This document shows, piece after piece, positions 5,402-22,390 of a stretch of DNA of 62,397 nt. The position numbers were made by a program, and so were the translations under genes. The stretch is taken from positions 1,093 to 63,489 of the forward strand of contig JAZKJK010000015.1 in assembly GCA_040384365.1 (NCBI GenBank), given 5' to 3'. The notes under the pieces were generated by a model, which was not told the DNA's origin, made no database searches, and worked only from the letters and a program-made list of their open reading frames with translations. Each line of letters begins with the position of its first letter. The first letter of the stretch is position 1. The stretch is from Patescibacteria group bacterium (GTDB lineage: Bacteria > Patescibacteriota > Minisyncoccia > Phycocordibacterales > UBA9973).

Positions 5402-6550
5402 ATGAAAGATTCCTTCAGCACAATTTTTGATAATAGTTCTTTAGAGAAACTGTCGCTTGCACACGAAACACCTTTTTTCCTTTTCTCGAAACAAAAAATA
5501 ATAGATAAGTTGCATAAGTTTAAAAAATGTTTTCCAGGATCGATAATTCATTATGCAATGAAAGCTAATTCCGAACCAGAGGTTTTAAAAATTCTTTTTG
5601 ATACAGGAAGCTCGTTTGAAGTTGCTTCAAAATATGAACTTGATTTACTAAAAGCCATAAAGATTCCGCCAGATAAAATAGTTTACGGTACTTCCGTTAA
5701 ACCCGCTTCCCATATAAAAGAATTCTATAATTATGGTGTAGATAGATTTGCCTTCGACTCCTTTTCGGAGCTTGAAAAAATATCTGCAAATGCTCCGGGT
5801 TCACGTGTATATGTAAGGACAATCGCTAATGATTCAGGCAGTGTATTTAAATTCTCCGAGAAATTTGGTATTGAAAAGGAAAACATCATCCCACTACTCA
5901 AGCGAGCAGTTGAACTTGGTCTCAAGCCATATGGGATAAGTTTTCATGTGGGTTCTCAGGCCAGCAACTTGAAAGCTTGGGGCAATGCCCTCGAACTTCT
6001 TCGTCCAATTGTTGAAAAGTTAAAGAAAGAGGACATAAATATAGAGGTTATAAATATAGGTGGGGGATTTCCTTGCAATAGTTATGCCTCAAGTGGGCAA
6101 ATTTTTTCCTTAGAAGAAATAGCTGAATTTACTCTAAAGCAATATAAAAAATTTCCTCCACACTTAAAGTTAATGCTAGAACCTGGGAGGGGGATTATAG
6201 CTGATACCTCAGTCTTAATTACAAGCGTAATAGCCAAGATTGAAAGAAAAGAACGTACATGGATTTTTTTAGATGCTGGGGTTTACAATGCTCTCTTTGA
6301 AGCTATGGCATATCAAGGTTCCACTCGTTACAAAATAAACAGTCTTAGATTAAGCAATGATTCTGGCGAAGCGATGTTTTCTCTTGCAGGACCAACTGGT
6401 GACAGTCCAGATATAATAGCTAGAGAAGTTTTATTACCAAAAGATGTTGAAATTGGGGATAAGCTTTTAATTCACGATGTGGGAGCTTATACCCTTACGG
6501 CATCTAGTAGATTTAATGGTTTCCCCAAACCACCTGTGTATTTTGTTTGA
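5402..6550 (+). CDS. type III PLP-dependent decarboxylase (ornithine/lysine/diaminopimelate decarboxylase family)
   Basis: The motifs HYAMKAN (PLP lysine), HVGSQ, GGGFP and EPGR appear in canonical order. Confidence 0.8.
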   Translation: MKDSFSTIFDNSSLEKLSLAHETPFFLFSKQKIIDKLHKFKKCFPGSIIHYAMKANSEPEVLKILFDTGSSFEVASKYELDLLKAIKIPPDKIVYGTSVKPASHIKEFYNYGVDRFAFDSFSELEKISANAPGSRVYVRTIANDSGSVFKFSEKFGIEKENIIPLLKRAVELGLKPYGISFHVGSQASNLKAWGNALELLRPIVEKLKKEDINIEVINIGGGFPCNSYASSGQIFSLEEIAEFTLKQYKKFPPHLKLMLEPGRGIIADTSVLITSVIAKIERKERTWIFLDAGVYNALFEAMAYQGSTRYKINSLRLSNDSGEAMFSLAGPTGDSPDIIAREVLLPKDVEIGDKLLIHDVGAYTLTASSRFNGFPKPPVYFV

Positions 6551-6581
6551 CACCAGAGTTTTAAAAAATTATAATATAAGT

Positions 6582-7388
6582 ATGCAATTAAATATCTATC
6601 AGAAAGTGTGCCTATATTTTTTTATTGCTCTGGTTATCTTTTGGGCAATTTTGTTTTCTTTGGGTTTGAAAGAAGGATTCTATAATTATTTCTTCTCGTT
6701 TTTATTTGGACTGATCCCCCTCATTGCAGGACTTATCGCCATGTTTCGTGCTCACTTTTGGGGTGGACTTAAAAGTGCAGTCGGTAAAGCAGTATTCTTT
6801 ATTGGTTTTGGTATATTTTTATGGGGATGTGGTGAGGCAATTTGGTCTTACTATAACTTTTTCATGAATATTCCGGCACCCTACCCATCAATTGCTGATC
6901 TGGGATTTGCCCCTAGTATTTTCTTTTATGGATTGGGCACTTTTTATCTTTCGAAAGCTACAGGTGCAAAATTTGGGCTGAGAAATAAATTTGCTAAATT
7001 TTTTGTGACGATAGCACCTTTGTTTATCCTTGCTCTTTCTTACTATCTTTTGATAAACGTTGCTCGGGGCGGCGTTTTAATTCCAGAAGGTGAGACACCC
7101 CTTAAAATTTTACTTGACATAGTCTATCCATTAGGAGATTTTATTGCTCTGACCTTGGGTGTAATAATATCAGGACTTTCTTTCCAATACCTTGGTGGTA
7201 AATACAAATCAGACATTTATGCAATATTATTAGGTCTTGGTGTTATGTTTATAGCTGACACTATCTTTTCCTATACAACAACTGTTGGGACTTATTATAA
7301 CGCTGATTTCGGTGATCTAGTACTTGCTCTTGGTACCTTCCTAATTTCTTTTGGAATCCTTGGTTTTTATAAATTGAAAGTAGATTAA
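6582..7388 (+). CDS. polytopic membrane protein (about 7-8 TM), possible sensor module
   Basis: The track ORF starts at 6477 inside the upstream gene. The first non-overlapping ATG is at 6582 (MQLNIYQKV). The protein is hydrophobic throughout. Confidence 0.6.
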   Translation: MQLNIYQKVCLYFFIALVIFWAILFSLGLKEGFYNYFFSFLFGLIPLIAGLIAMFRAHFWGGLKSAVGKAVFFIGFGIFLWGCGEAIWSYYNFFMNIPAPYPSIADLGFAPSIFFYGLGTFYLSKATGAKFGLRNKFAKFFVTIAPLFILALSYYLLINVARGGVLIPEGETPLKILLDIVYPLGDFIALTLGVIISGLSFQYLGGKYKSDIYAILLGLGVMFIADTIFSYTTTVGTYYNADFGDLVLALGTFLISFGILGFYKLKVD

Positions 7389-7395
7389 AATATTT

Positions 7396-7674
7396 ATGGA
7401 TCCAATCTTACAAATTCCAATAAGAATTATAAAAGAGCAAGAACTTGTTATTGGACCTTTGGCTTGGGATGAAGCCCAAAAAGTTACCGGACTTAATATT
7501 GATCAATCACACAATTCTGTTTCTTTTACTGGTGATGCAAAAGATATAATAAATAGGTTGGTGGCTCAGTATGAAAGAATTTTCGGAAAAGCTTCCCACG
7601 CTGTGTGTCATGATGCTGTAAAAGATTTAATAACTGGAATGTCTCCCGCAGAAGTTCCGTCTAGTCTAAAATAA
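7396..7674 (+). CDS. small cytoplasmic protein of unknown function
   Basis: This 92-aa ORF lies 7 nt after the membrane protein and 9 nt before the kinase gene. Confidence 0.5.
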   Translation: MDPILQIPIRIIKEQELVIGPLAWDEAQKVTGLNIDQSHNSVSFTGDAKDIINRLVAQYERIFGKASHAVCHDAVKDLITGMSPAEVPSSLK

Positions 7675-7683
7675 TGATCAGTT

Positions 7684-8505
7684 ATGGCAAATAACGATGA
7701 CAAAAATCCTATTTCTCCAGAGGAATATAAGAACATAACAGAAAAAATGTATAAGCAGAATCTCGAGCTGGCGAGATTGTACAAAGAAGTTGATAGTTTA
7801 AATAAAAGCCGAGAAAGCTTGGTGCATTTGATCAATCATAAAGTAAAAGGCGCTTTTACCCATTCAAAATATATTTTTGCAGGAATTTTGGATGGAACCT
7901 TTGGTGACACAAATGAGGAAATAAGAAAAAGAGCAACTCAGGGACTAGAGTCAGACGATATGGGGATCAAGACCATTGATCTGTTTTTAAATACTGATAA
8001 TTTAAAAAAGGGAACCATAAAATATGACATGAAGGATACTGATTTTAAAGATCTAATTTTGCAAACTTTAGCGGGGAAAAAAGTACAGGCAGAAGCAAGG
8101 GGCCTCCAGATGGAAAGTATTATAGATGATGGCGCCTACCATGTATCGGGTGATGTATTCTGGCTACGAGAAGCTGTGAATAATCTGATAGATAATTCTA
8201 TTAAATACACAAAGGAGGGCAAGATAACTGTCGACCTCAAAGATGGTAATGGTCAAGTAAAATTATCCGTTAAAGATACTGGCATAGGTATCGCTGACGA
8301 GGACAGGAAAACTATGTTTACCGAGGGTGGGCGGGGTCAAAACTCAGTCAAAATAAATGTGGATAGTACAGGCTATGGTCTCTATACGGTAAAATTGGTC
8401 ATAGAGGCTCATGGTGGTAAAGTTTGGGTAGAATCAGAAGGTGAGGGTAAAGGTTCTACTTTCTATATTGAATTGTCATCTATCTCAGAAAACAAGCTTT
8501 CATAA
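7684..8505 (+). CDS. soluble histidine kinase (HisKA_2-like H box plus HATPase_c)
   Basis: The H box is INHKVKGAF (compare HRVKN), the N box is NLIDNSIKYT, G1 is DTGIGI and G2 is GYGLYTV. There is no TM segment or sensor domain. Confidence 0.75.
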   Translation: MANNDDKNPISPEEYKNITEKMYKQNLELARLYKEVDSLNKSRESLVHLINHKVKGAFTHSKYIFAGILDGTFGDTNEEIRKRATQGLESDDMGIKTIDLFLNTDNLKKGTIKYDMKDTDFKDLILQTLAGKKVQAEARGLQMESIIDDGAYHVSGDVFWLREAVNNLIDNSIKYTKEGKITVDLKDGNGQVKLSVKDTGIGIADEDRKTMFTEGGRGQNSVKINVDSTGYGLYTVKLVIEAHGGKVWVESEGEGKGSTFYIELSSISENKLS

Positions 8506-8534
8506 AAAATGATTGTATAGTATTGTTATTCTTA

Positions 8535-11500
8535 ATGGAGGAGAATCAAGAGAAAAATAAACCCGCCTCTGCACAAGGCTCCGGCGAGGCGAAGAAGTCA
8601 GACGCAGCGCTTCGCGAAGAAGCTGTTTTGGAGTTTTGGAAAGAGAATAAAATATTTGAAAAGTCTTTGACCAAAAAGGCGCCAAAGGGCAATTATGTTT
8701 TTTATGATGGCCCTCCTTTTGCCACTGGGCTGATGCATTATGGGCATATTTTGGGCAGTACTGCTAAAGATGTGGTAGGACGGTATCAGACAATGAAAGG
8801 TTTTCATGTTCCTAGAAAATGGGGTTGGGATTGTCATGGTCTACCTATTGAGAATATCGTTGAGAAAGATTTAAATATTGCTGGGCACAAAGAGATAGAA
8901 AAATTTGGCATAGATAAATTTGTAGAACATGCGCGCAGTAAGGTTTTGCAATATGACAAAGAATGGGAAAAGAGCGTCGAACGCATCGGGCGTTGGGTGG
9001 ATTTTAAAGGCGGATACAAAACAATGGATAATACTTTCATTGAATCTGCCTGGTGGGCTTTTAGTCAGTTGAATAAAAAAGGTCTAATCTATGAAGGAGT
9101 CAGAGTTTTGGCCTATTGCGCGAGGTGTGAAACTCCGATTGCTAATTCTGAAATAGCGATGGACAACAGTTATAAAGATATTGCGGATATTTCTATTTAT
9201 GTAAAATTCGAACTAGAAGACGAACCCAGAACATATCTACTGGCTTGGACGACGACGCCTTGGACCTTGCCGGGTAACACTGCGATTGCGATAAATAAAA
9301 ATATTGTCTATGTAAAAGTGAAAATAGGGGATGACGTTTTAATACTTGCAAAGGAAACTTTGAACAATGTTATAAAAAATAAAGAATATTCTATGCTGGG
9401 TGAAGTAAGAGGGGCTGATTTGATCGGTAAAAAATACAAGCCAGTTTTTCCTTATTATCAAAATACTGATATGCCGAATAGAGAAAATATTTGGAAAATT
9501 TGGCACGCGGATTTTGTAACTACAGAAAAAGGTACAGGTATTGCCCATGAAGCCCCAGCCTTTGGTGAAGAAGATGCCGATTTGGCAAAGGCGAATAGTA
9601 TTCCTTGGATTATTCACGTAGACGAGACAGGCAGATTTAAAGCCGAAGTGGTGGACTTTGCTGGTTTGAAAGTAAAACCCAAAGATACACTGGAAGACAA
9701 AGATGCGCACTTGCGGAGTGATATTGAAGTCATAAAATATCTTCAAAAAACCGGAGCGTATTTCGATAAAGAAAAAATAATCCATTCATACCCGCATTGC
9801 ATGCGTTGTGAGACGCCGATTATCTATTATGCGTTACCGTCTTGGTTTATTAATATTCAAAAAGTTAAAAAGCAAATCATAAAAAAAGCAGATGCGATGA
9901 ACTGGGTTCCCGCTCATTTAAAAGAAGGCAGGTTTAAAAATATAGTCGAGAATGCACCTGATTGGAATGTATCTCGAAATCGTTATTGGGCTTCACCCTT
10001 GCCGGTTTGGAAGTGTGAAAAGTGCGCAGAGAAGATTTTTATCGGCTCAATGAGTGAATTGAAAGAAAAAACCAAAAAATCTGGTAATAAATACTTTGTG
10101 ATGCGACACGGGGAGTCAGAAAGCAACATCAAACATGGCTCGCATGGGGTCATCTCCTCTCGCGAAGAGAATGTCGATCATCTGACTGAAGTTGGTCGGG
10201 GACAAGTAGAAAAAACTGCGAAAGAATTAAAAAATAAAAAGATTGATCTAGTTTTTGCTTCACCACTTATGCGGACTCGGGAAACACTCGCGATTCTGAA
10301 AGAAAAATTGGGCCTCACCGAAGAGCAGATCGTCTTTGATAAAAGATTGCAGGAAATACAAGGAGGTTCTTTTGAGGGTAAGCCGTGGGACGCATACTTG
10401 CGAACCTTGCTGGATCCAAAAGAAAGATTTCTAAAGTCTCATGAGGGGGTAGAGTCTTTGCTGGAGGTGAAAAAGAGAGTCGGGAATGTGATCTACGAAT
10501 TAGAAGAAAAATATTCTGAGAAGAATATTCTAATAATCTCGCATGGGGGACCACTCTGGATGTTCTATTCTGTATTGCATGGGTACAACGTCGATGAGTC
10601 TATCGCCATGACTGGCGGACTTTTTAGGCATTCGGAAGAAATTGAAAAAGGGGTTTCGGGAAGTTTTCGCTTTTTTAAAAATGCAGAATGTCGCGCTTTT
10701 GATTTTATTTCTATTCCTCATAATGAAAAATATGAACTAGACTATCATAGACCATATATAGACAGCATAAAACTCGTCTGTGATTGTTCCGCTATGATGA
10801 ACAGAGTACCAGAAGTTTTAGATTGTTGGTTTGAATCTGGCTCCATGCCTTTTGCTCAAGATCACTATCCATTTAAAAATCCGAAGTGGCAGAAAAATAA
10901 CTTTCCGGCTGGGTTTGTGGCTGAATATATTGCCCAGACGAGAACTTGGTTTTACTATACCCATGTCCTTTCCACTATTCTCTTTAATCATGCGCCATTT
11001 GAAAATGTGGTGACTACCGGCACACTCCTGGCGGAAGATGGTCAAAAAATATCAAAATCTAAAAAAAATTATCCAGACCCTTGGATATTTATAGATAAGT
11101 ATGGGGTCGACGCATTGCGTATTTATCTCATGACGAGTCCTCTAATGAAAGGGGAGGATGCAAATTTTTCAGAAAAGTCTGTGCAAGAAATCTCAAGTAA
11201 GATTATCGGCAGACTGGGAAATGTATTTTCCTTTTATGAACTTTATCGGGATCACTCACTTGAAGCTATAACTGACAACCCAAAACCTAATACTGTTTTG
11301 GATCAGTGGATTCTTGCACGCTTGAATCAATTTGTTGGGGAAGTTACGAATGGCATGGAAGCATACGATATGAATGAAGCCTCTCGTCCGATTGAAAACT
11401 TTATAGAGGATCTGTCCGTTTGGTATTTGCGTCGTTCACGAGATAGAATCAAGAATGGAGATAAGGAAGCCAAGCAAACTTTGTATTTTGTTTTGAAAAC

Positions 11501-12107
11501 TTTGGCAAAAACCATGGCTCCCTTCGCGCCATTTACAGCTGAAGATATATGGTTGAAATTGAAAAATGAAGATAGTGCGGAAAGTGTGCATTTAGAAAAT
11601 TGGCCAAAAGCTGAAAATATAAATAGTAAAATTATTGAAGAGATGGACATGGTTCGCAAAGTCGTGACTCTCGGGCTAGAAGCTAGGCAAAAGGCAGGCA
11701 TAAAAGTTCGTCAGCCCCTCGCTAAATTAGAAGTTAAAGATTTAAATTTCGGCAGAGAATATGTCGAGCTCATAAAAGATGAGTTGAATGTGAAAGTAGT
11801 TGTAAAAAACATAAATCTAGAAACTGAAGTCGCTCTCGATACAACAATTATAGAAGAACTAAAACAAGAAGGGGATTATCGTGAACTCGTGCGTGCCATT
11901 CAGGATATGCGCAAAAATATGGGGCTGACGCCTAGTGATGTAATCTCACTTTGTGTTGAGACGAGCGGAGAAGGTAAAAAATTAGTCCGAAAATTTGAAA
12001 ATGATATGAAAAAAACTGTCTTGGCGTCTAAAGTCGAGTTCCAAAACAACGATGGGCAAGAAGTAAAAGTTGATACCTTGGTTTTCAAGGTAAAAATTGA
12101 GAAATAG
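8535..12107 (+). CDS. ileS: isoleucyl-tRNA synthetase carrying an internal histidine-phosphatase domain insertion
   Basis: The class I and IleRS landmarks are present: HYGH, the editing motifs TTTPWTLPGNTA and GTGIAHEAPAFG, WFESGSMPF, and KISKS. The track start at 8523 is TTG; the first ATG is at 8535. The insert at about 10089-10733 carries RHGES, SPLMRTRET and SHGG. Confidence 0.95.
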   Translation: MEENQEKNKPASAQGSGEAKKSDAALREEAVLEFWKENKIFEKSLTKKAPKGNYVFYDGPPFATGLMHYGHILGSTAKDVVGRYQTMKGFHVPRKWGWDCHGLPIENIVEKDLNIAGHKEIEKFGIDKFVEHARSKVLQYDKEWEKSVERIGRWVDFKGGYKTMDNTFIESAWWAFSQLNKKGLIYEGVRVLAYCARCETPIANSEIAMDNSYKDIADISIYVKFELEDEPRTYLLAWTTTPWTLPGNTAIAINKNIVYVKVKIGDDVLILAKETLNNVIKNKEYSMLGEVRGADLIGKKYKPVFPYYQNTDMPNRENIWKIWHADFVTTEKGTGIAHEAPAFGEEDADLAKANSIPWIIHVDETGRFKAEVVDFAGLKVKPKDTLEDKDAHLRSDIEVIKYLQKTGAYFDKEKIIHSYPHCMRCETPIIYYALPSWFINIQKVKKQIIKKADAMNWVPAHLKEGRFKNIVENAPDWNVSRNRYWASPLPVWKCEKCAEKIFIGSMSELKEKTKKSGNKYFVMRHGESESNIKHGSHGVISSREENVDHLTEVGRGQVEKTAKELKNKKIDLVFASPLMRTRETLAILKEKLGLTEEQIVFDKRLQEIQGGSFEGKPWDAYLRTLLDPKERFLKSHEGVESLLEVKKRVGNVIYELEEKYSEKNILIISHGGPLWMFYSVLHGYNVDESIAMTGGLFRHSEEIEKGVSGSFRFFKNAECRAFDFISIPHNEKYELDYHRPYIDSIKLVCDCSAMMNRVPEVLDCWFESGSMPFAQDHYPFKNPKWQKNNFPAGFVAEYIAQTRTWFYYTHVLSTILFNHAPFENVVTTGTLLAEDGQKISKSKKNYPDPWIFIDKYGVDALRIYLMTSPLMKGEDANFSEKSVQEISSKIIGRLGNVFSFYELYRDHSLEAITDNPKPNTVLDQWILARLNQFVGEVTNGMEAYDMNEASRPIENFIEDLSVWYLRRSRDRIKNGDKEAKQTLYFVLKTLAKTMAPFAPFTAEDIWLKLKNEDSAESVHLENWPKAENINSKIIEEMDMVRKVVTLGLEARQKAGIKVRQPLAKLEVKDLNFGREYVELIKDELNVKVVVKNINLETEVALDTTIIEELKQEGDYRELVRAIQDMRKNMGLTPSDVISLCVETSGEGKKLVRKFENDMKKTVLASKVEFQNNDGQEVKVDTLVFKVKIEK

Positions 12108-12111
12108 AAAT

Positions 12112-12717
12112 ATGAAGTTAATTATTTTTGATTTTGATGGGGTCTTGGTGGATACGCTCATCATGACCTATGAGATAACCAAAGAAATAAATCCGGAAAT
12201 GTCCCTTGAGGATTTTCGTTTACTTAACAATGGGAACTTTCTTCACTCAATAGAAAATAGCCTTACGATTAAAAATCATCCTGAATTTTTTGAGCGGTAC
12301 AAAGAAGAATCCAGAGAACTCAAGATACCTCCATCATTAAAAGATTTAATTTATAAATTAAGCAAAGAGTGCACACTCGCGATTGTTTCTTCTTCTCTGT
12401 CATCTTTGATCAAAGACATTCTAGATCGGGAAGATGCTATGCCATATTTTATGGATATATTGGGTAGTGATTTACACAAGAGCAAGGTCTTCAAAAATAA
12501 AATGCTTTTGGAGAAGTATAAAGTTGATCCCAAAGATGCAGTTTTCATCACAGATACTGTGGGTGATATACTTGAAGCACGCGAATGCGGAATAAAATCT
12601 ATCGCTGTGACTTGGGGTTTCCAAGATGCAGAGTCTTTACAAAAAGCCAAACCGGCCAAAATAGTCAGTATGCCAGAAGACTTGATGCAAGCGATAACAG
12701 AACTTACCAATGCGTAA
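12112..12717 (+). CDS. HAD-superfamily phosphatase (phosphoglycolate phosphatase-like)
   Basis: Motif I is IIFDFDGVLVDT. The gene starts at the ATG at 12112, 5 nt after the ileS stop. Confidence 0.8.
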   Translation: MKLIIFDFDGVLVDTLIMTYEITKEINPEMSLEDFRLLNNGNFLHSIENSLTIKNHPEFFERYKEESRELKIPPSLKDLIYKLSKECTLAIVSSSLSSLIKDILDREDAMPYFMDILGSDLHKSKVFKNKMLLEKYKVDPKDAVFITDTVGDILEARECGIKSIAVTWGFQDAESLQKAKPAKIVSMPEDLMQAITELTNA

Positions 12718-13357
12718 AAAAATTTCAGATATTTATACTGAATATAAAATAATGCCAAGTTTGCAGGATCATATGCTCCGTGTGGCAGCGGTAGCATCTT
12801 TAATCTGCGACAACTTTGACGAGCCTCTTCCAAAAGAAGAAATAATCAGTGCATGTTTGTTACACGATATGGGGAATATTATCAAGTCAGACCTTAAATA
12901 TTTTCCAGAATTTTTAGAGCCACAAGGTTTGGACTATTGGCAGGAGGTCAAAGATGAATATATACAAAAATACGGCAAAAATGAACTGCAAGCGACCGTG
13001 CAAATTATTCAGGAACTGGGCCTGAGCAATCTGCTTCCTGTTTTTGGTGGTATGAGCTTTGCCAAAGCTAAAGAAAATCTTGCAGTCGAGGATTTTGCCA
13101 TCAAAATCTGTTTTTATGCCGATCTACGGGTTGATCCGCACGGAGTTGTTTCATACGAGGGGCGGATGGAAGAAGGGAAAAAGAGATATCAAAACAGGAC
13201 GGACGTTTTTTCTACTGAAGGGCGAGATTATTTAGTCCAATGCGGTAAAGAAATCGAAAAACAAATCTTCGCAAAATGCAAAATAAAGCCGGAAGATATA
13301 AATAATGAAACCGCAGCCCCAATAATTTTAAGCTTGAGGGGCTTTGTGATAAAATAA
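12710..13357 (+). CDS. HD-domain phosphohydrolase
   Basis: An H...LLHDMGN signature is present. The gene overlaps the HAD gene by 8 nt. Confidence 0.7.
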   Translation: MRKKISDIYTEYKIMPSLQDHMLRVAAVASLICDNFDEPLPKEEIISACLLHDMGNIIKSDLKYFPEFLEPQGLDYWQEVKDEYIQKYGKNELQATVQIIQELGLSNLLPVFGGMSFAKAKENLAVEDFAIKICFYADLRVDPHGVVSYEGRMEEGKKRYQNRTDVFSTEGRDYLVQCGKEIEKQIFAKCKIKPEDINNETAAPIILSLRGFVIK

Positions 13358-13361
13358 AAAG

Positions 13362-13877
13362 ATGGATAAAAAATTTACTTATGGAAATAAGTATGTGTGT
13401 AATCTTGAAAAAAAGACAATATTCTTACCGGTTGAATTAGAAAATCTTCCAGACAAGCTGATCATCGGGGAGTTTACTTTATTTAAAAGATCTGAGTTTC
13501 ATGTTAGTCTTGTTTGTGTTGGAAAAATAATAGAGAAGTACAAAATTTCTATTCCAGATTTTTGGAATAAAGTCGTCGATGATTTTTACGAATTTACTAG
13601 AACAAAAAAAATTGAAATTATAGGTTATAAAGATGAATTTAAATTTGTAGTAAGAGAAAATAAAAAAACAGTTGTAGTTATGTGTGAAATGTCGAATCTG
13701 AATGAATTTTTTGATTTTATAAATCATAAATATACTCTGAACATTGATTACCCGCCAGCTCACATCACTCTCTATACTCTCGATGGAGAATCCGGTATAT
13801 TTCTGATCAGTATCGATGATATAAAAAATTTTACAAAGCCTATTACAAATCCGATAGGTTTTATATTGCAATCTTAA
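13362..13877 (+). CDS. 2H phosphoesterase-superfamily protein (LigT/cyclic phosphodiesterase-like)
   Basis: Two HxS/Tx motifs (EFHVSLVC and AHITLYT) lie about 87 aa apart in a 171-aa protein, which matches the 2H-fold layout. Confidence 0.5.
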   Translation: MDKKFTYGNKYVCNLEKKTIFLPVELENLPDKLIIGEFTLFKRSEFHVSLVCVGKIIEKYKISIPDFWNKVVDDFYEFTRTKKIEIIGYKDEFKFVVRENKKTVVVMCEMSNLNEFFDFINHKYTLNIDYPPAHITLYTLDGESGIFLISIDDIKNFTKPITNPIGFILQS

Positions 13878-14503: not shown

Positions 14504-16453
14504 ATGGCGATAAATGATGGAGATAAATTAAACAGAATAGAAGAGTTAAAAAGCAAGCTCTTTAGTAAGAGCTATAGGACAAAGATAGAACACCGAGACA
14601 GTTTTACACACTTTGATAAAAATAAAGTGCCAGAGGCGTGGGGAAATGATGGAAAATCAGCGACCGACTATCTTTCATATCAAGAAAAATTTTTTATGAA
14701 AACATCTCTTTTTAAGAATTTCTTTTTATTTTCGTTAATTTTTCTTGTGCTGACGCTTTGTTATGCTGCCTATGTTTTTTTTGCTGGAGGCAATACGGTT
14801 TCTAATGAAAATATCGATATTTCAGTATTGGGGAATAATTTTACGGCTGGCGGAGAAGAGCTCTCGTTCGTCGTGGGAATCACAAATAAAAATAATTCTT
14901 CACTTGATTTAGTAAATTTAGTCATAGAATATCCCAAAAACTCGGGAGTCGGCACCACCACTTCTACTTCGGGCACACAAAGGACGCGACAGTCTCTAGG
15001 TACTATTCCCGCCGGGGCAGTGCGTAACGAAAATATAAAAGTGGTATTGTTTGGTGAGCAAGGCAGTCTGCAGAATATCAAGATCACGCTCGAGTATCGC
15101 GTCGAAGGGTCAAATGCCATCTTTGTCAAAGACAAATCCTACGATGTGACCATTAGCTCGACTCCTCTCAATTTGTCTATCGATGCTCCTTCTGTAACCA
15201 GCTCGAACCAAGCCCTAACTCTAAAAATAAAAGCCACACTAAACGCTACCAAGCCAGTTTCTAAAATACTTCTCAAGGTGGATTATCCACTCGGATTTCA
15301 ATTTGAATCAGCTGTGCCAGCTCCAACCCAAGGCAATAATGTCTGGAATATGGGGGATTTAGCTCCCGGCGCAGAGCGCACCATATCAGTGACCGGGAAA
15401 ATACTCGATGCCGTGGATGGAGAAGAAAAAACTTTTCGTATCTCGAGTGGTTCCCAGTCCAGCACTGACAAATCCATGATAGATGTTGTTTTTAATTCTC
15501 TGCCATACACGGTGATGATACAGAAGCCTTTTGTGGAGGCGCAAATTTTTATAAATGGTGTATCCGAAAGGCAATATGCTACCGATGCCAAGACTGCCAT
15601 CAATGGGCAGATCAGATGGACCAATAATTTAGATACGAATGTCAATGATTTAATAATTCAGGCGAAAATATCTGGGAACGCGGTGAATAGGAAGACCATC
15701 AATGCGCAACAGGGCTTCTATGATTCTTCAAAAGACGTCATAACTTGGGATAAAACTTCAGTGAATGATTTTGCGCGAATAAGCCCGGGTGATTCTGGAT
15801 CGGTAAATTTTTCTGTTTCGCCACTTTCCATATTCTCAGCGGCGGACGGGTTATTGCCTAGTCCTTCTGTGACCATAGATATTTCTATATCCGGCAAACA
15901 ATCTGTCTCTGGTTATACCACACAAGATTTGCATAATTCTGATTCAGCCATAATTCGAATCATTTCCGATGTTGGACTTACGGCCAAAGCTCTTCGTTAC
16001 TCCGGACCCTTTTCTAATACTGGCCCCATACCTCCAAAAGTCGAACAAAAAACAACTTATACAGTACAATGGTCTCTCTCTAATACAGCCAACAATATAT
16101 CCAAAGCAGTTATTAACTCCAGTCTGCCATCTTGGGTGAGTTTTGTGGGTCCAATTTCGCCGGCGGAGGTAGACCTCATTTACAATCCCGCCACTAGAAG
16201 CATCGTCTGGAATATAGGCAGTATTCCAAAGGGGACTGGCATTACCACAGCAGGCAAGAGCGTCTCTTTCCAAGTTGCATTTACTCCGTCACTTTCTCAA
16301 GTCGGCACTACTCCGATTATTATAAATGACGCAGTTTTGACTGGGCATGACGATTTTGCTAATGTAGACGTGAGGGTGAGTAAGACTTCGCTCCGCACCC
16401 AGCTCGACAGCGATCCGTCGTTTCCTTCTGGCGGAGGTCAGGTAGTGGAATAA
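14504..16453 (+). CDS. membrane-anchored extracytoplasmic beta-rich protein (CARDB/DUF11-like repeats)
   Basis: There is a single TM segment near residue 75, followed by about 560 aa rich in Ser, Thr, Asn and Val with beta-type periodicity. Confidence 0.55.
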   Translation: MAINDGDKLNRIEELKSKLFSKSYRTKIEHRDSFTHFDKNKVPEAWGNDGKSATDYLSYQEKFFMKTSLFKNFFLFSLIFLVLTLCYAAYVFFAGGNTVSNENIDISVLGNNFTAGGEELSFVVGITNKNNSSLDLVNLVIEYPKNSGVGTTTSTSGTQRTRQSLGTIPAGAVRNENIKVVLFGEQGSLQNIKITLEYRVEGSNAIFVKDKSYDVTISSTPLNLSIDAPSVTSSNQALTLKIKATLNATKPVSKILLKVDYPLGFQFESAVPAPTQGNNVWNMGDLAPGAERTISVTGKILDAVDGEEKTFRISSGSQSSTDKSMIDVVFNSLPYTVMIQKPFVEAQIFINGVSERQYATDAKTAINGQIRWTNNLDTNVNDLIIQAKISGNAVNRKTINAQQGFYDSSKDVITWDKTSVNDFARISPGDSGSVNFSVSPLSIFSAADGLLPSPSVTIDISISGKQSVSGYTTQDLHNSDSAIIRIISDVGLTAKALRYSGPFSNTGPIPPKVEQKTTYTVQWSLSNTANNISKAVINSSLPSWVSFVGPISPAEVDLIYNPATRSIVWNIGSIPKGTGITTAGKSVSFQVAFTPSLSQVGTTPIIINDAVLTGHDDFANVDVRVSKTSLRTQLDSDPSFPSGGGQVVE

Positions 16454-16490
16454 GTTATAAAGTTCATAAAGTAGAAAGTTATAAAGCAAA

Positions 16491-17819
16491 ATGAAAAAAG
16501 AAAACAAAGAGAATGAATTGATGGAAAAGATAGTCTCGCTATGCAAAAGGCGAGGGTTTGTTTTTCAGGGTTCAGAAATATATGGGGGACTGGGCGGAAC
16601 TTGGGACTTCGGACATTATGGAGTTGCCTTAAAAAATAATATTACCCAGTCTTGGTGGAATAAATTTGTGGATTCTAGGCGGGATATGTATGGCATAGAC
16701 GCAGCTATTCTCATGCGTCAAGAAGTCTGGCAAGCCTCTGGCCACGTGGCCGGGTTTGCTGATCCGATGGTGGAATGTGAAAAATGTAAAAAAAGATTTC
16801 GCCCCGATCAAATTGAAGATGCAAAAAAGTGTCCGGAATGCGGAGGCAAGCTTGGCCAGCCGAGACAATTCAATATGATGTTTCAAACAAAAGTCGGCGC
16901 TTCGGAAGATTCTTCGGCTATTTCATATCTGCGCCCTGAAACAGCCCAAGGAATGTTTGTAAATTTCAAAAATACCGTGGACGCTTTTCATCCCAAACTT
17001 CCTTTTGGAATGGCCCAAATCGGTAAGGCCTTCAGGAATGAGATAACTCCGCGTGATTTTCTTTTTCGTGTGCGCGAATTTGAGCAGATGGAGATAGAAT
17101 ATTTTATTCGTGGCGGAGATTGGGAAAAATATTTCGAATACTGGAAAGATGAGATGCTCGCTTGGATGCAAGAAGTTGGCCTCGATATGAATAAAGTTCA
17201 TGAGCTCGAAGTGCCAAAAGAAGACAGAGCGCATTATTCTAGCCGGACGATTGATTTTGAATTTGATTTTCCATTTGGCAAGAAAGAACTTTTTGGTCTT
17301 GCTTATCGTACGGATTTTGATCTCAAGAATCATAAGCTTGAATATATAGACGAGGAGAACAAAGAAAAAATAGTGCCACATGTCATTGAGCCGACCTTTG
17401 GAGTCGGTCGAGCCTTGCTTGCTCTATTAGTTTCAGCCTATCGTGAAGACCCCGAAGCAAAGAGTACTTCCGACGGGGCAAGTGAAAAAAGAGTCTACCT
17501 AAAGTTTAAAGCAAGTATTGCGCCGGTTATCTGCGCTGTTTCGCCACTCTTAAAAAATAAACCAGAACTTGTGGAATATGCTAATGCCAAAGTTTTTGTA
17601 CCACTTAAGGCGGAGTTTGGTCGGGTGGCTTGGGACGACAATGGCAACATCGGCAAGCGTTATCGCAGGCAAGACGAAATCGGCACGCCATTTTGTATCG
17701 TAGTTGATTTTGATACGCTCACAGATAATACCGTGACTGTCCGCGATCGTGATACAGGCGAGCAGGAGAGGGTATCAGTTGCCGATTTACAAAAATACAT
17801 AAAAGGAAAGATAAACTAA
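16491..17819 (+). CDS. glyQS: glycyl-tRNA synthetase (homodimeric alpha2 type)
   Basis: The sequences RRGFVFQGSEIYGGLGGTWDFGHYG and RPETAQGMF, plus class II motifs, are characteristic of GlyQS. Confidence 0.95.
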   Translation: MKKENKENELMEKIVSLCKRRGFVFQGSEIYGGLGGTWDFGHYGVALKNNITQSWWNKFVDSRRDMYGIDAAILMRQEVWQASGHVAGFADPMVECEKCKKRFRPDQIEDAKKCPECGGKLGQPRQFNMMFQTKVGASEDSSAISYLRPETAQGMFVNFKNTVDAFHPKLPFGMAQIGKAFRNEITPRDFLFRVREFEQMEIEYFIRGGDWEKYFEYWKDEMLAWMQEVGLDMNKVHELEVPKEDRAHYSSRTIDFEFDFPFGKKELFGLAYRTDFDLKNHKLEYIDEENKEKIVPHVIEPTFGVGRALLALLVSAYREDPEAKSTSDGASEKRVYLKFKASIAPVICAVSPLLKNKPELVEYANAKVFVPLKAEFGRVAWDDNGNIGKRYRRQDEIGTPFCIVVDFDTLTDNTVTVRDRDTGEQERVSVADLQKYIKGKIN

Positions 17820-17865
17820 AAATACTTAGAACTCTGCTATCGCAGAAAATCTAGTAAAAGTACTT

Positions 17866-19134: not shown

Positions 19135-19233
19135 TTGTGTTTATTTTAGTTTGCAACATTGACATTGATATCTAAATAGATGTACCATTCAACCGAACAG
19201 TAGCAGCAAACCTAAACCTTGGAAGGATAGAAC

Positions 19234-19746
19234 ATGAAAAAAAGAATAGAAAGGTCGATGGTAGGGATAATTTTCCTCATCAACGGCCCAAATCTCAACC
19301 TTCTCGGCAAGCGGGATCCTGAAAAATATGGGACAGCGACCCTGGAGCAGATCACTCGTCAAGTGGCAAAGAAAGCCAGAAAACATGGTTTCGTCGTCAA
19401 GGCATTCCAGTCGAATCATTCTGGTGCATTGATTGATTTCATTCAGACACTTGGTCTTTCAGAAGCGACAGTGCTTATGAGGGGGATTGTGTTGAACGCC
19501 GGTGGACTCACTCACACGGATGTTTCCTTGCGAGACGCAGTGGACTTTGCGTCTTCAAAGGGTGTACCGACCGTTGAGGTGCATCTTTCCAATATTCATA
19601 AACGCGAAACGTTTCGGCAGGTTTCGCTTTTAACCGGAGTCTCCATTGACCAGGTCTGTGGACTTGGGGCGAGGAGTTACACAGAGGGACTCGAGAAGCT
19701 TATAACGCATTTGAAGGAAATGCGTCGTAAGTCGAAAAAGAAATAG
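19234..19746 (+). CDS. aroQ: type II 3-dehydroquinate dehydratase
   Basis: The motifs INGPNLNLLGKRDPEKYG, NAGGLTHTDVSLRDA and HLSNIHKRETFRQVS are present. An alternative start at 19258 is possible. Confidence 0.9.
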   Translation: MKKRIERSMVGIIFLINGPNLNLLGKRDPEKYGTATLEQITRQVAKKARKHGFVVKAFQSNHSGALIDFIQTLGLSEATVLMRGIVLNAGGLTHTDVSLRDAVDFASSKGVPTVEVHLSNIHKRETFRQVSLLTGVSIDQVCGLGARSYTEGLEKLITHLKEMRRKSKKK

Positions 19747-19757
19747 GCCACATCTAA

Positions 19758-19809
19758 GGGCCGGAGGAAGGGCTGATGCTTTTCATCCGGCCCTTTCTCT
19801 TTGTTTTTT
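19758..19809 (+). terminator. rho-independent terminator after aroQ
   Basis: The arm gggccgga pairs with tccggccc and is followed by tttctctttgtttttt. Confidence 0.6.
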
Positions 19810-19840
19810 ATTTTTCGTATTTTTGTGCTATCATATTTCT

Positions 19841-20914: not shown

Positions 20915-20928
20915 CTCGCTAATAAATA

Positions 20929-22377: not shown

Positions 22378-22390
22378 AAAAAATATTAAT

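What the first reader, a model, noticed from the sequence alone, without database searches (positions are those of the whole stretch)
10089..10733. Complete histidine-phosphatase (PGAM-type) domain inserted in-frame inside isoleucyl-tRNA synthetase
The IleRS ORF has every class I and IleRS landmark: HYGH, the editing motifs TTTPWTLPGNTA and GTGIAHEAPAFG, WFESGSMPF, and KISKS. As far as I recall, two conserved blocks in eukaryote-like (type 2) IleRS are joined by only a short linker. Those blocks are SPLPVWKCEKCAEKIFIGSMSELKEK and ELDYHRPYIDSIKLVCDC...VLDCWFESGSMPF. Here about 215 aa sit between them.

The insert reads KYFVMRHGESESN...VGRGQ...FASPLMRTRET...LQEIQGGSFEG...ILIISHGGPL. These are the RHG, SPLxRxxxT, E..G..EG and SHGG motifs of histidine-phosphatase superfamily branch 1, in canonical order and spacing, with the catalytic His/Arg/Glu/His positions present. 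The reading frame is continuous, with no stop or frameshift.

An apparently active phosphatase embedded beside the aminoacylation core is an architecture I do not recognise. Possible roles are speculative: removal of a 2'/3' phosphate or pyrophosphate from the tRNA acceptor end before charging, or hydrolysis of a phosphorylated metabolite or inhibitor.
Basis: partly seen in the sequence, partly recalled or inferred. Interest (0 to 1): 0.85.

Follow-up and report, generated by a model that had tools for sequence, protein, structure and literature searches.

The report
Phosphatase enzyme nested inside isoleucyl-tRNA synthetase
An essential protein-synthesis enzyme (isoleucyl-tRNA synthetase) of an ultra-small Patescibacteria bacterium carries a complete, apparently active phosphatase enzyme spliced into one of its surface loops; the arrangement is real, is shared by hundreds of related genomes, appears undescribed, and its purpose is unknown.

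Summary
ORF 8523/8535-12107 encodes a type 2 IleRS. Residues ~517-737 (nt 10071-10733) are a whole branch-1 histidine phosphatase (Pfam His_Phos_1, E 3e-31) nested in the CP3/zinc-knuckle loop, where insert-less relatives have 4-12 residues.

It is not an assembly artefact. All 120 best homologs carry it, as do 34 GTDB species representatives, at the same site wherever the ORF is complete. The catalytic residues (R528, H529, N535, R584, E611, H674) are conserved in at least 120 of 121 sequences, although the insert diverges faster than the host (43% vs 74% identity).

In sister Paceibacteria lineages the same protein is a free-standing ~190-aa gene wedged argS | hp | ileS (43 of 46 loci, median gaps 7 nt). 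Related copies sit in CP3 of ValRS (71 of 120 homologs; Gracilibacteria, Peregrinibacteria), at two other IleRS sites, and at the C-termini of ArgRS and TsaC.

By sequence and fold, its nearest characterised relatives are small-metabolite phosphomonoesterases (PspA, PhoE, CobC, GpgP), not phosphoglycerate mutase.

The substrate is unknown. My leading guess (~40%) is removal of a phosphomonoester from a tRNA 3' end or an adenine nucleotide. The main rival (~30%) is an unrelated housekeeping phosphatase carried as a passenger. No searched paper describes this architecture.

The parts
8523..12107 (+). Complete ileS ORF (type 2 IleRS with nested phosphatase). The likely true start is the ATG at 8535.
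   Evidence: ORF. Pfam and NCBIfam hits. The 100% identical public protein P0001 is 1190 aa. Coordinates verified.
8523..10070 (+). IleRS N-terminal part: first Rossmann half (HYGH at 8736-8747), CP core, CP1 editing domain (TTTPWT at 9249-9266, GTGIAH at 9531-9548), CP2, and the first half of CP3.
   Evidence: Aligns to 8C8U residues 11-476. Motifs verified. Subdomain names follow PMC7191050 and PMC7955072.
9954..9995 (+). CP2-CP3 linker APDWNVSRNRYWAS. In yeast IleRS the equivalent segment lines the pocket for the tRNA 3' end, which is also the reveromycin A site.
   Evidence: Sequence. Its role in ScIleRS (453-ARDWNVSRNRYWG-465) comes from PMC7955072.
10014..10025 (+). First Cys pair (C498-x-x-C501) of the CP3 zinc knuckle.
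   Evidence: The four Cys are present in 89 of 121 homologs and are lost together in about 31. T. thermophilus IleRS CP3 has a zinc motif.
10071..10733 (+). Nested branch-1 histidine phosphatase domain (aa 517-737). It corresponds to a whole free-standing ~190-aa protein.
   Evidence: Pfam PF00300, E 1.1e-32 on the segment alone. Boundaries defined against insert-less IleRS. End-to-end alignment with free-standing homologs. AF2 pLDDT 83-96 in the full-length model and 89 for the domain alone. Foldseek top hits are PspA, GpgP and PhoE.
10104..10112 (+). RHG motif: R528, H529 (predicted phospho-accepting nucleophile) and G530.
   Evidence: Invariant in 121 of 121 homologs and in 33 of 33 insert plus free-standing sequences.
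10272..10274 (+). R584, the second phosphate-binding Arg (SPLxR motif).
   Evidence: 121 of 121.
10353..10355 (+). E611, the predicted general acid/base.
   Evidence: 121 of 121. Lies in an 'E-I-x-x-G-x-F-E-G-K' context, as in PhoE and PspA (alignment).
10542..10544 (+). H674, the second catalytic His (SHG motif).
   Evidence: 121 of 121.
10734..12107 (+). IleRS C-terminal part: rest of CP3 (HRPYID; C753-x-C755 at 10779-10787), second Rossmann half (WFESG at 10827-10841, KISKS at 11046-11060), anticodon-binding domain, and type 2 C-terminal domains.
   Evidence: Aligns to 8C8U residues 485-885 and 937-1022. Pfam Anticodon_1 and DUF5915. Coordinates verified.
12097..12717 (+). HAD-family phosphatase gene overlapping the ileS stop codon. 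It occupies a variable slot between ileS and recO.
   Evidence: Pfam HAD_2, E 5e-19. Below every NCBIfam equivalog cut-off. Present in L001 but absent in L002 and L003.
12710..13357 (+). HD-domain protein gene. Its ortholog is fused to the IleRS C-terminus in several related genomes.
   Evidence: Pfam HD, 29.7 bits. 55% identical to the C-terminal 212 aa of P0013. Eight IleRS homologs of 1286-1330 aa carry PF01966.

Best explanation
The gene encodes a bifunctional protein: a normal-looking type 2 IleRS with a complete PhoE/PspA/CobC-like histidine phosphatase nested in a surface loop of the CP3 (zinc-knuckle) subdomain.

Shown:
- The guest is the same protein that, in sister Paceibacteria lineages, is a separate ~190-aa gene packed tightly between argS and ileS.
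- In the window's lineage that gene is no longer upstream but sits in frame inside ileS, one copy per locus.
- Its catalytic residues are under strict purifying selection.
- Related copies have been captured at the equivalent CP3 site of ValRS in other CPR lineages. Others sit at two further IleRS sites and at the C-termini of ArgRS and TsaC.

Inferred:
- The domain is an active phosphomonoesterase (~80%). It would work by the standard mechanism of the superfamily: His529 attacks the phosphate held by R528, R584, N535 and H674, and E611 protonates the leaving group and then activates water.
- Meanwhile the IleRS part charges tRNA-Ile as usual.
- Repeated capture by class Ia synthetases suggests that keeping the phosphatase with the synthetase is selected.

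My best guess for the substrate (~40%) is a phosphomonoester on a ligand of the adenosine/A76 pocket. That means a 2'/3'-phosphorylated tRNA 3' end, or a 3'/2'-phosphorylated adenine nucleotide, which would otherwise block aminoacylation. The substrate is not shown.
For: Architecture and reality:
- establish the ORF, the domains and the boundaries.
- All 120 best homologs (61-100% identity, many independent sources) carry PF00300.
- 34 GTDB species representatives have the domain nested, at the same site in the 33 whose ORF extends far enough to judge.

Selection on catalysis:
- R528, H529, G530, R584, E611 and H674 are 121 of 121. N535 is 120 of 121.
- Mean identity to the window protein is only 43% in the insert, against 74% in the host.

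Fold:
- AF2 pLDDT is 83-96 over the insert, and also high at both junctions.
- The domain-only model has pLDDT 89 and pTM 0.88.
- Foldseek and profile searches give PspA, PhoE, CobC, GpgP and a riboflavin-pathway phosphatase as nearest relatives.

Origin:
- Free-standing homologs align end to end with the insert.
- 43 of 46 free-standing loci read ArgRS | HisPhos | IleRS, with median gaps of 7 nt.
- No locus has both a nested and a free-standing copy.

Recurrence:
- ValRS: 71 of 120 homologs carry 1-4 copies, 73 of them in CP3.
- IleRS P0240 (six contigs, the longest 1.06 Mb) has two copies at other sites.
- ArgRS C-terminal fusion.
- TsaC fusion in four clusters.
- Nomurabacteria ValRS (P0501) has no insert, while IleRS homologs named Nomurabacteria do.

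Location:
- The insertion lies in CP3. It is ~25 residues after the CP2-CP3 linker, which lines the tRNA A76 pocket in yeast IleRS.
Against: - No biochemical data exist and the substrate is unknown.
- The nearest characterised relatives all act on small metabolites, not RNA.
- The domain is not consistently basic. In the window's clade it is slightly acidic (median pI 6.0), like its host.
- Operon adjacency to ileS is weak functional evidence.
- Gene fusion is promiscuous in Patescibacteria. TsaC there is fused to Ogt, TruB, 2H phosphoesterase, a glycosylase, NUDIX or GNAT. One IleRS even carries an IS200-type transposase domain.
- CP3 is structurally variable among IleRSs and may simply tolerate insertions.
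- Copies occur at several sites, some far from the active site.
- Some ValRS copies have lost the acid Glu or the second His.
- I could not obtain model coordinates, so the distance between the phosphatase pocket and the A76 pocket is unknown.
Confidence: 0.55

Rival explanations
1. Passenger model. The phosphatase is a housekeeping small-metabolite phosphomonoesterase with no functional relation to aminoacylation. It happened to be the upstream operon neighbour of ileS and was nested into a permissive CP3 loop. The fusion is neutral, or merely guarantees co-expression.
For: - Nearest relatives by sequence and fold are metabolite phosphatases (PspA, PhoE, CobC, GpgP, riboflavin-pathway HFP).
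- The domain functions as a free-standing protein in many lineages.
- Fusions are promiscuous in Patescibacteria, and IleRS there also hosts GNAT and transposase domains.
- CP3 topology varies between IleRSs.
- The insert evolves faster than the host.
- Charge follows the proteome.
Against: - The same guest family is found in CP3 of both IleRS and ValRS in different CPR lineages, at two more IleRS sites, and fused to ArgRS and TsaC. Random choice of guest would rarely pick the same family repeatedly.
- Tandem arrays of 2-4 copies in ValRS are odd for a housekeeping enzyme.
- All 80 best-matching species-representative loci link it to ileS: 34 nested, 44 immediately upstream of ileS, 1 with an IleRS/ValRS-like ORF on the opposite strand (L057), and 1 contig-limited (L081).
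Confidence: 0.3
2. Hidden glycolytic enzyme. The domain is the divergent phosphoglycerate mutase reported as 'missing' in shallow Parcubacteria clades. It is invisible to annotation because it sits inside IleRS.
For: - Jaffe et al. [quoted passage not shown]
- The best NCBIfam hit of free-standing P0166 is the short archaeal dPGM model (102 bits).
- The domain belongs to the same superfamily.
Against: - Scores are far below the dPGM cut-offs (76-102 bits against 225).
- The region after the catalytic Glu reads E-I-x-x-G-x-F-E-G-K, as in PhoE and PspA, not the dPGM ERHYG/WRRS substrate motifs (sequence; motif knowledge is my own).
- The same paper states that a complete Gracilibacteria genome lacks glycolysis altogether. 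Yet ValRS homologs labelled Gracilibacteria carry the domain.
Confidence: 0.05
3. Protein phosphatase. The domain removes phosphate (pHis, pSer or pThr) from IleRS itself or from a partner, for example to reverse kinase-mediated inhibition of the synthetase.
For: - Small branch-1 domains such as SixA and the MutT1 C-terminal domain are reported phosphoprotein phosphatases (abstracts).
- In the window the gene directly upstream of ileS encodes an HATPase_c protein.
Against: - SixA model scores are 28-34 bits against a cut-off of 74.5.
- No protein phosphatase appears among the top sequence or fold matches.
- The HATPase_c neighbour is specific to this window. ArgRS is the usual upstream gene.
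Confidence: 0.06
4. Product removal. The domain hydrolyses pyrophosphate (or AMP) released by adenylate-forming enzymes (IleRS, ValRS, ArgRS, TsaC), pulling the reactions forward.
For: All four fusion partners release PPi and AMP (established enzymology; partners). Tandem copies would raise the dosage.
Against: - I found no precedent for PPi hydrolysis by a branch-1 histidine phosphatase. My recollection that the MutT1 C-terminal domain cleaves 8-oxo-GDP was not supported by the paper I read.
- Whether these genomes lack a canonical pyrophosphatase could not be tested. The window holds none, but it is only 62 kb.
Confidence: 0.04
5. Assembly chimera, mis-join or intein-like selfish element, rather than a real part of the mature enzyme.
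For: None found. The only superficial resemblance is a conserved H733-N734 near the C-terminal junction.
Against: - The same junctions occur in 120 homolog clusters and 34 GTDB species.
- GC and GC3 are continuous across the borders.
- No flanking repeats.
- No Hint or intein domain in Pfam.
- The residue after H-N is A, K or E rather than C, S or T.
- The free-standing homologs share the same N- and C-terminal elements.
Confidence: 0.01

Closest known systems
PhoE / PspA / CobC-type branch-1 histidine phosphatases (PDB 1H2E, 4IJ5, 6NRU; also GpgP Rv2419c 4PZ9 and the riboflavin-pathway HFP 9MMH)
   Same: The size is the same (~190-210 aa) and so is the α/β fold: Foldseek E 7e-14 to 1e-12, TM 0.65-0.75. 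The catalytic residues are the same (RHG His, two Arg, Asn, Glu, second His), as is the 'E-I-x-x-G-x-[FW]-E-G-K' region.
   Different: Identity is only ~20-24%. Scores fall below every NCBIfam equivalog cut-off. The known enzymes are free-standing metabolite phosphatases. This one is nested in an aaRS, or encoded between argS and ileS. It also has its own N-terminal 'SGN-x-Y' and C-terminal 'GE-x-R-x-L' elements.
Type 2 (eukaryote/archaea-like) IleRS, e.g. P. megaterium IleRS2 (8C8U/8C8V) and T. thermophilus IleRS (1ILE)
   Same: All class Ia and IleRS landmarks are present, along with the type 2 C-terminal domains and a zinc-binding CP3 as in T. thermophilus.
   Different: About 221 extra residues form an independent enzyme domain inside CP3, where 8C8U has 8 residues.
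CP1 editing domain of class Ia synthetases
   Same: It is a hydrolytic domain nested in the connective polypeptide of the Rossmann fold, working beside the synthetic site. This is the classic precedent for 'an enzyme inside an aaRS' (domain descriptions).
   Different: CP1 is universal in IleRS, ValRS and LeuRS and has a different fold. It hydrolyses aminoacyl esters, not phosphoesters. The phosphatase is lineage-specific and also exists as a separate gene.
Other bifunctional proteins with a His_Phos_1 domain: M. tuberculosis RNase HI/acid phosphatase Rv2228c (NCBIfam NF005567) and mycobacterial MutT1 (Nudix + RHG domain)
   Same: A small branch-1 phosphatase is covalently joined to a nucleic-acid or nucleotide enzyme. 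NF005567 matches the insert at 65-67 bits. MutT1 is described in PMC11784022.
   Different: Those are end-to-end fusions, not nested insertions. Their partners are not aaRSs. The scores here are far below their cut-offs.
NCBIfam NF040702 'isoleucine--tRNA ligase, N-acetyltransferase domain-containing'
   Same: It shows that IleRS with an extra enzymatic domain is already a recognised annotation class. P0266 combines the His_Phos insert with a GNAT domain.
   Different: The extra domain there is a GNAT, not a phosphatase. The window protein scores 301 bits against a cut-off of 1999.

Membership tests
Histidine phosphatase superfamily, branch 1 (Pfam PF00300) | Score above the Pfam gathering threshold | tested here: met
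   108.9 bits in the full protein and 113.7 bits for the segment alone, against a cut-off of 21.7.
Histidine phosphatase superfamily, branch 1 (Pfam PF00300) | Catalytic core: RHG nucleophile His, two phosphate-binding Arg, a general-acid Glu and a second His, in canonical order | tested here: met
   R528, H529, R584, E611 and H674 are present and invariant in 121 of 121 homologs.
Histidine phosphatase superfamily, branch 1 (Pfam PF00300) | α/β fold of the superfamily | tested here: met
   AF2 domain model with pLDDT 89. Foldseek probability is 1.00 to PspA, GpgP, PhoE and dPGMs.
Histidine phosphatase superfamily, branch 1 (Pfam PF00300) | Phosphatase or mutase activity through a phospho-histidine intermediate | not testable with these tools
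   Requires an enzyme assay.
Cofactor-dependent phosphoglycerate mutase (dPGM) | Equivalog-level HMM score | tested here: not met
   dPGM_arch NF038349: 71-76 bits for the insert and 102 bits for free-standing P0166, against a cut-off of 225. The other dPGM models score below 41 bits.
Cofactor-dependent phosphoglycerate mutase (dPGM) | Substrate-binding motifs after the catalytic Glu (ERHYG, WRRS) and the C-terminal tail | tested here: not met
   The sequence reads E611-IQGGSFEGK, as in PhoE and PspA. The motif definition is from my own knowledge of the family.
PspA phosphoserine phosphatase / CobC alpha-ribazole phosphatase / SixA | NCBIfam equivalog cut-off | tested here: not met
   PspA 54-59 bits against 350. 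CobC 72-77 bits against 162.9. SixA 28-34 bits against 74.5.
Isoleucyl-tRNA synthetase (TIGR00392) | Equivalog HMM score | tested here: met
   850.9 bits against a cut-off of 621.4.
Isoleucyl-tRNA synthetase (TIGR00392) | Class I HIGH and KMSKS motifs, plus the CP1 editing motifs | tested here: met
   HYGH at 72-75, KISKS at 842-846, TTTPWT at 243-248 and GTGIAH at 337-342. All are conserved in homologs.
Type 2 IleRS | Closest to IleRS2 and eukaryote-like enzymes, with the type 2 C-terminal domains | tested here: met
   8C8U E 1.8e-218, against type 1 1FFY at 7.6e-80. DUF5915 is present. Foldseek top hits are IleRS2 and yeast IleRS.
Type 2 IleRS | Aminoacylation and editing activity retained despite the insert; sole IleRS of the genome | not testable with these tools
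   Only one IleRS lies in the 62-kb window. The whole genome is not available here.
Intein / Hint domain | Hint fold, N-terminal Cys/Ser, and C-terminal His-Asn followed by Cys/Ser/Thr | tested here: not met
   No Hint domain in Pfam. H733-N734 is followed by A, K or E in most homologs.
NCBIfam NF040702, IleRS with GNAT domain | Model cut-off | tested here: not met
   301 bits against 1999. No GNAT domain in the window protein.

The most novel reading that the evidence does not exclude
The nested histidine phosphatase is a dedicated de-blocking or healing activity for tRNA 3' ends. It would remove 2'/3'-phosphate left by RNase or toxin cleavage, or another phosphoryl block on A76. Different CPR lineages have built it into, or beside, their class Ia synthetases. 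That would make it a previously unknown phosphate-directed quality-control step coupled to aminoacylation, analogous in logic to the CP1 editing domain. The variably present HD and HAD phosphohydrolases next to ileS, and the HD fused to its C-terminus, would belong to the same repair toolkit.
Probability: 0.2. Interest if true: 0.9.

Novelty: new variant of a known kind. Interest (0 to 1): 0.72.

Why it matters
Aminoacyl-tRNA synthetases are among the best-studied enzymes. Apart from the editing domain, very few carry a second catalytic activity nested in the catalytic core.

Here a whole, apparently active phosphatase sits in CP3 of IleRS in a large part of the Paceibacteria. The same guest sits in CP3 of ValRS in Gracilibacteria and Peregrinibacteria.

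If the phosphatase acts on tRNA ends or adenine nucleotides, it would reveal a new layer of substrate quality control in translation, in organisms with minimal genomes.

If it is a passenger, it is still useful in two ways:
- It is a clean natural example of how a neighbouring gene becomes a nested domain, with the free-standing, terminally fused and nested states all preserved in extant genomes.
- It is a warning that per-gene annotation of CPR genomes hides enzymes inside 'class I tRNA ligase family proteins'.

Either way the question is directly testable with one recombinant protein and a point mutant.

Tried and rejected
1. Chimeric assembly: rejected, because the junctions recur in more than 150 independent assemblies, composition is continuous and there are no flanking repeats.
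2. Intein or selfish element: rejected.
3. dPGM identity: rejected on HMM cut-offs and motifs. The 'missing PGM of Parcubacteria' lead is kept only as a low-probability rival, because Gracilibacteria lack glycolysis yet carry the domain in ValRS.
4. Pyrophosphatase precedent: I recalled that the MutT1 RHG domain cleaves 8-oxo-GDP. The paper I read says its activity was unknown, or directed at phosphoproteins, so I dropped that argument.
5. Electrostatic test for RNA binding: the domain is basic in many genomes (median pI ~9.7), but so are their hosts. In the window's own clade it is acidic (pI 6.0). The test is uninformative or mildly negative.
6. Defence-system link: no PADLOC hit for the insert, HAD, HD or the unknown 171-aa protein.
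7. HD neighbour identity: no significant PDB or NCBIfam match.
8. A profile scan of genomes with the broad alignment A2 failed for lack of a conserved stretch. It worked with the tighter A3.
9. Single-origin test: the domain NJ tree is unresolved. The host IleRS NJ tree needs 5-7 nested/free changes in 100 of 100 bootstraps, against ~23 for shuffled labels (the first attempt timed out). I cannot say whether nesting happened once.
10. Relative geometry of the two active sites: not obtainable, because the tools return no model coordinates or PAE.
11. A search of the window for ArgRS, PGM, pyrophosphatase or glycolytic genes found none.


Full report
**1. The observation**

The window contains one uninterrupted ORF, 8523..12107 on the + strand, of 1194 aa from a TTG. 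A public protein that is 100% identical is 1190 aa, so the real start is probably the ATG at 8535.

Pfam finds tRNA-synt_1 (E 3.4e-122) in two stretches. They are separated by His_Phos_1 (PF00300) at residues 525-692, with E 3.3e-31 and 108.9 bits against a gathering score of 21.7. Anticodon_1 and DUF5915 follow. NCBIfam's IleRS equivalog model scores 850.9 bits (cut-off 621.4).

Against the solved P. megaterium IleRS2, residues 29-515 align to 11-476 and residues 738-1132 align to 485-885. So ~222 residues stand where that enzyme has eight.

Against close Paceibacteria IleRSs that lack the insert, the extra segment is residues 517-737, nt 10071-10733. Those enzymes have mostly 4-12 residues there.

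**2. Not an artefact**

- All 120 best homologs in the 5.8-billion-protein collection carry PF00300 inside an IleRS. They span 61-100% identity, come from NCBI, JGI, ENA and Logan assemblies, and are named Patescibacteria, Paceibacterota, Nomurabacteria or Parcubacteria.
- In a scan of GTDB species-representative genomes, 34 loci have the domain nested. In the 33 whose ORF extends far enough, it sits at the same place: RHG ~35 residues after the PxPxW motif and HRPYID ~195 residues later.
- GC, GC3 and skew are continuous across the borders.
- No repeats flank the segment.
- There is no Hint/intein domain. The conserved His-Asn near the C-terminal junction is followed by Ala, Lys or Glu, not Cys, Ser or Thr.

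**3. What the insert is**

It is a whole protein. Free-standing homologs of 185-205 aa align with it from their first residues ("M-K-L-N-N-x-Y-F-L-L-R-H-G") to their last strand ("G-E-L-R-x-L").

AlphaFold2 models the full-length protein with mean pLDDT 84 and pTM 0.73. The insert scores 83-96, and both junctions score above 90. The domain alone gives pLDDT 89 and pTM 0.88.

Its nearest solved relatives are all small-metabolite phosphomonoesterases of ~200 aa:
- By profile: H. thermophilus phosphoserine phosphatase PspA (E 1.5e-31), B. stearothermophilus PhoE (1e-29) and CobC (4e-24).
- By fold: PspA, GpgP Rv2419c, the riboflavin-pathway histidine-family phosphatase 9MMH, and PhoE.

It misses every NCBIfam equivalog cut-off (dPGM_arch, CobC, PspA, SixA, GpmB), and so does the free-standing form. 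It is therefore an uncharacterised subfamily.

The stretch after the catalytic Glu reads E-I-Q-G-G-S-F-E-G-K, as in PhoE and PspA, rather than the ERHYG/WRRS substrate motifs of true mutases. The motif knowledge is my own.

**4. Selection**

In 121 aligned IleRSs, mean identity to the window protein is 43% in the insert and 74% in the host.

R528, H529, G530, R584, E611 and H674 are nevertheless present in 121 of 121 sequences. N535 is present in 120. Y524, G558 and S580 are present in 121, and R652 in 119. This is the pattern expected of an active enzyme, not of a spacer.

The host keeps all its own landmarks. The four Cys of the CP3 zinc knuckle that brackets the insert (C498, C501, C753, C755) are present in 89 of 121 sequences. 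They are lost together in about 31.

**5. Where it sits in IleRS**

According to the yeast and Candida structures, the insertion point lies in the CP3 subdomain (ScIleRS 459-526; CaIleRS 473-534). Query residue 517 aligns to Sc ~492 and Ca ~499.

CP3 connects CP2 to the second half of the Rossmann fold. Its topology differs between Candida, Thermus and Staphylococcus IleRS, and it carries a zinc motif in Thermus.

The CP2-CP3 linker ARDWNVSRNRYWG lines the pocket that binds reveromycin A, a mimic of the tRNA 3' end. It corresponds to APDWNVSRNRYWAS (residues 478-491) in the window, ~25 residues before the insert.

I could not obtain model coordinates, so the real distance between the two active sites is unknown.

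**6. Origin**

In 46 of the 80 best GTDB loci the phosphatase is a separate gene. In 43 of these the order is ArgRS | phosphatase | IleRS, with median gaps of 7 nt on both sides and many 1-4-nt overlaps. The IleRS in these loci is 909-1008 aa and has no insert.

The nested loci keep the same block: ArgRS directly upstream in 19 of 34, and RecO downstream in 16. They lack the separate gene. No locus has both forms, and the window has a single copy.

So a gene that was the immediate upstream neighbour of ileS now lies in frame ~1.5 kb inside it.

One lineage instead fused it to the C-terminus of ArgRS (P0229).

On an NJ tree of the host IleRS, the nested/free state is strongly clustered: 5-7 changes in all 100 bootstraps, against ~23 for shuffled labels. 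It does not form one clean clade, and the domain tree is unresolved. I cannot say whether nesting happened once and then spread by recombination, or more than once.

**7. Recurrence elsewhere**

The same family, on separate branches of the domain tree, is found in other translation enzymes:
- **ValRS.** Among the 120 best homologs of ValRS P0144, 71 carry one to four copies. These come from Gracilibacteria, Peregrinibacteria and unnamed MAGs, on contigs up to 1.37 Mb. 73 copies lie between the DWxISR linker and the WF(D/S)S motif, which is CP3 again. Nine lie just before DWxISR.
- **IleRS at other sites.** An IleRS found on six contigs (the longest 1.06 Mb) has a normal CP3 but two copies elsewhere. 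One follows WFESGSMPYA. The other lies between the KMSKS/stem-contact region and the anticodon-binding domain.
- **TsaC/Sua5.** It is fused to the domain in four clusters.

A Nomurabacteria ValRS (P0501) has no insert, whereas IleRS homologs named Nomurabacteria do. The IleRS-double lineage appears to have an insert-less ValRS: P0494 is listed with a longest contig of the same length (439,541 nt) as that of P0275. This suggests one host per genome, but I could not test that on whole genomes.

In ValRS the catalytic set is less strict. The nucleophile His and both Arg are kept in 84-85 of 86 copies. By profile alignment, the acid Glu is kept in only 59 and the second His in 76.

**8. Caveats on functional inference**

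- Fusion is promiscuous in these bacteria. The same TsaC family is fused to Ogt-type PF01035 (most often), TruB, 2H cyclic phosphodiesterase, a DNA glycosylase, NUDIX or GNAT.
- One IleRS (P0266) carries an IS200-type transposase domain in its editing region, plus a GNAT after WFESG, in addition to the phosphatase.
- NCBIfam already has a model for IleRS with GNAT.
- Operon adjacency to ileS is not in itself functional evidence.
- The domain's charge follows the proteome: median pI ~9.7 where the host IleRS is ~9.0, and 6.0 in the window's clade.
- The slot between ileS and recO holds variable phosphohydrolases. The window has HAD plus HD plus an unknown 171-aa gene. L001 has HAD only, L002 has HD fused to the IleRS C-terminus, and L003 has nothing. 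This is suggestive but not conserved.

**9. Mechanism**

Shown: the architecture, the intact catalytic set, the fold, the operon origin and the recurrent capture by class I synthetases.

Inferred with ~80% confidence: the domain is an active phosphomonoesterase using the standard phospho-His mechanism, and IleRS function is retained.

Inferred with ~40% confidence: its substrate belongs to the aminoacylation sphere. That means a 2'/3'-phosphorylated tRNA 3' end, or a 2'/3'-phosphorylated adenine nucleotide, that would occupy the adenosine/A76 pocket unproductively. In that case proximity to the class Ia core is what selection maintains.

The main rival (~30%) is a housekeeping metabolite phosphatase carried as a passenger in a permissive loop.

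Minor rivals:
- A hidden phosphoglycerate mutase. The lead is Jaffe et al. 2020. It is weakened by the HMM cut-offs, the motifs, and the absence of glycolysis in Gracilibacteria.
- A protein phosphatase. SixA- and MutT1-type precedents come (abstracts), but the family scores are poor.
- A pyrophosphatase. I have no precedent I can cite. My own recollection about MutT1 proved wrong.

**10. Novelty**

Ten full-text searches found no description of a histidine phosphatase in or next to an aaRS. One of the papers examined, a 2026 preprint surveying IleRS domain evolution, does not mention it either.

Public annotations call these proteins 'class I tRNA ligase family protein' or 'isoleucyl-tRNA synthetase'.

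Both parts belong to known families. The combination, its breadth and its parallel occurrence in ValRS are new as far as I can tell. I therefore rate it a new variant of a known kind, with interest 0.72.

Noticed in passing
window 12710-13357 (+); also P0013, P0018, P0045, P0071, P0075, P0080, P0097, P0113: The HD-domain protein encoded two genes downstream of ileS is fused to the C-terminus of the phosphatase-bearing IleRS in eight related clusters (1286-1330 aa). It is 55% identical to the C-terminal part of P0013. It has no significant match in PDB sequences or NCBIfam.
   Followed up: partly
window 12097-13877 (+); L001-L003: The interval between ileS and recO is a variable slot. The window has HAD + HD + an unknown 171-aa gene. 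L001 has HAD only, L002 has HD fused to IleRS, and L003 has nothing. The unknown gene (13362-13877) has markedly low GC (0.26-0.28, against ~0.38 around it) and no family hit.
   Followed up: partly
window 10014-10025 and 10779-10787 (C498, C501, C753, C755): The four Cys of the CP3 zinc knuckle that brackets the insert co-vary across homologs. All four are present in 89 of 121. In about 31 they are replaced together (Ser/gap ... Asp/Lys), implying repeated loss of zinc binding with the phosphatase still in place.
   Followed up: partly
P0144 and P0397-P0515 (ValRS homologs); not in the window: ValRS of Gracilibacteria, Peregrinibacteria and related MAGs carries 1-4 copies of the same phosphatase family, mostly in CP3. 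About a third of the copies lack the acid Glu, and nine have Asn in place of the second His (for example the RHRSN group: P0422, P0423, P0425, P0435, P0437, P0440). These may be binding-only or mechanistically altered.
   Followed up: partly
P0266 (IleRS, 1066 aa, JGI contig 11 kb); not in the window: One IleRS carries three extra domains at once. An IS200-like Y1 transposase domain (aa 340-461) lies inside the editing-domain region. The His_Phos insert lies in CP3. A GNAT acetyltransferase follows WFESG. The ORF ends inside or just after the GNAT domain, so it may be truncated or disrupted.
   Followed up: no
P0154, P0278-P0394 (TsaC/Sua5 homologs); not in the window: In Patescibacteria the t6A enzyme TsaC is a fusion hub. 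Its partners include an Ogt-type methyltransferase domain (most common), TruB, 2H cyclic phosphodiesterase, methylpurine glycosylase, NUDIX, GNAT and this histidine phosphatase.
   Followed up: no
window 8523-8537: The mechanical ORF starts at TTG 8523, but the identical public protein is 1190 aa, which corresponds to the ATG at 8535. The sequence just upstream is AT-rich, with no obvious strong Shine-Dalgarno motif.
   Followed up: partly
window 7684-8505 (+): The gene immediately upstream of ileS encodes a 273-aa protein with only a C-terminal HATPase_c domain (histidine-kinase-like ATPase). It has a moderate match to the PADLOC candidate family PDC-M43B (E 8e-12). In most related genomes ArgRS occupies this position instead.
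   Followed up: no
L006 (ENA contig_3, 1.06 Mb), gene 6001-10260: The IleRS with two phosphatase copies at non-CP3 sites belongs to an organism with a richer gene set nearby (DAHP synthase, adenylosuccinate synthase, a 1476-aa SLH-domain protein). Its first copy reads ARHAES, with Ala in place of the Gly of RHG.
   Followed up: no
window 14504-23230 (+): Downstream of recO the window keeps a block conserved in related genomes: DUF11/CLIPPER-like protein, class II aaRS (tRNA-synt_2b), M16 peptidase, AI-2E transporter, then MetRS and TatD. So three aaRS genes lie within 14 kb.
   Followed up: no
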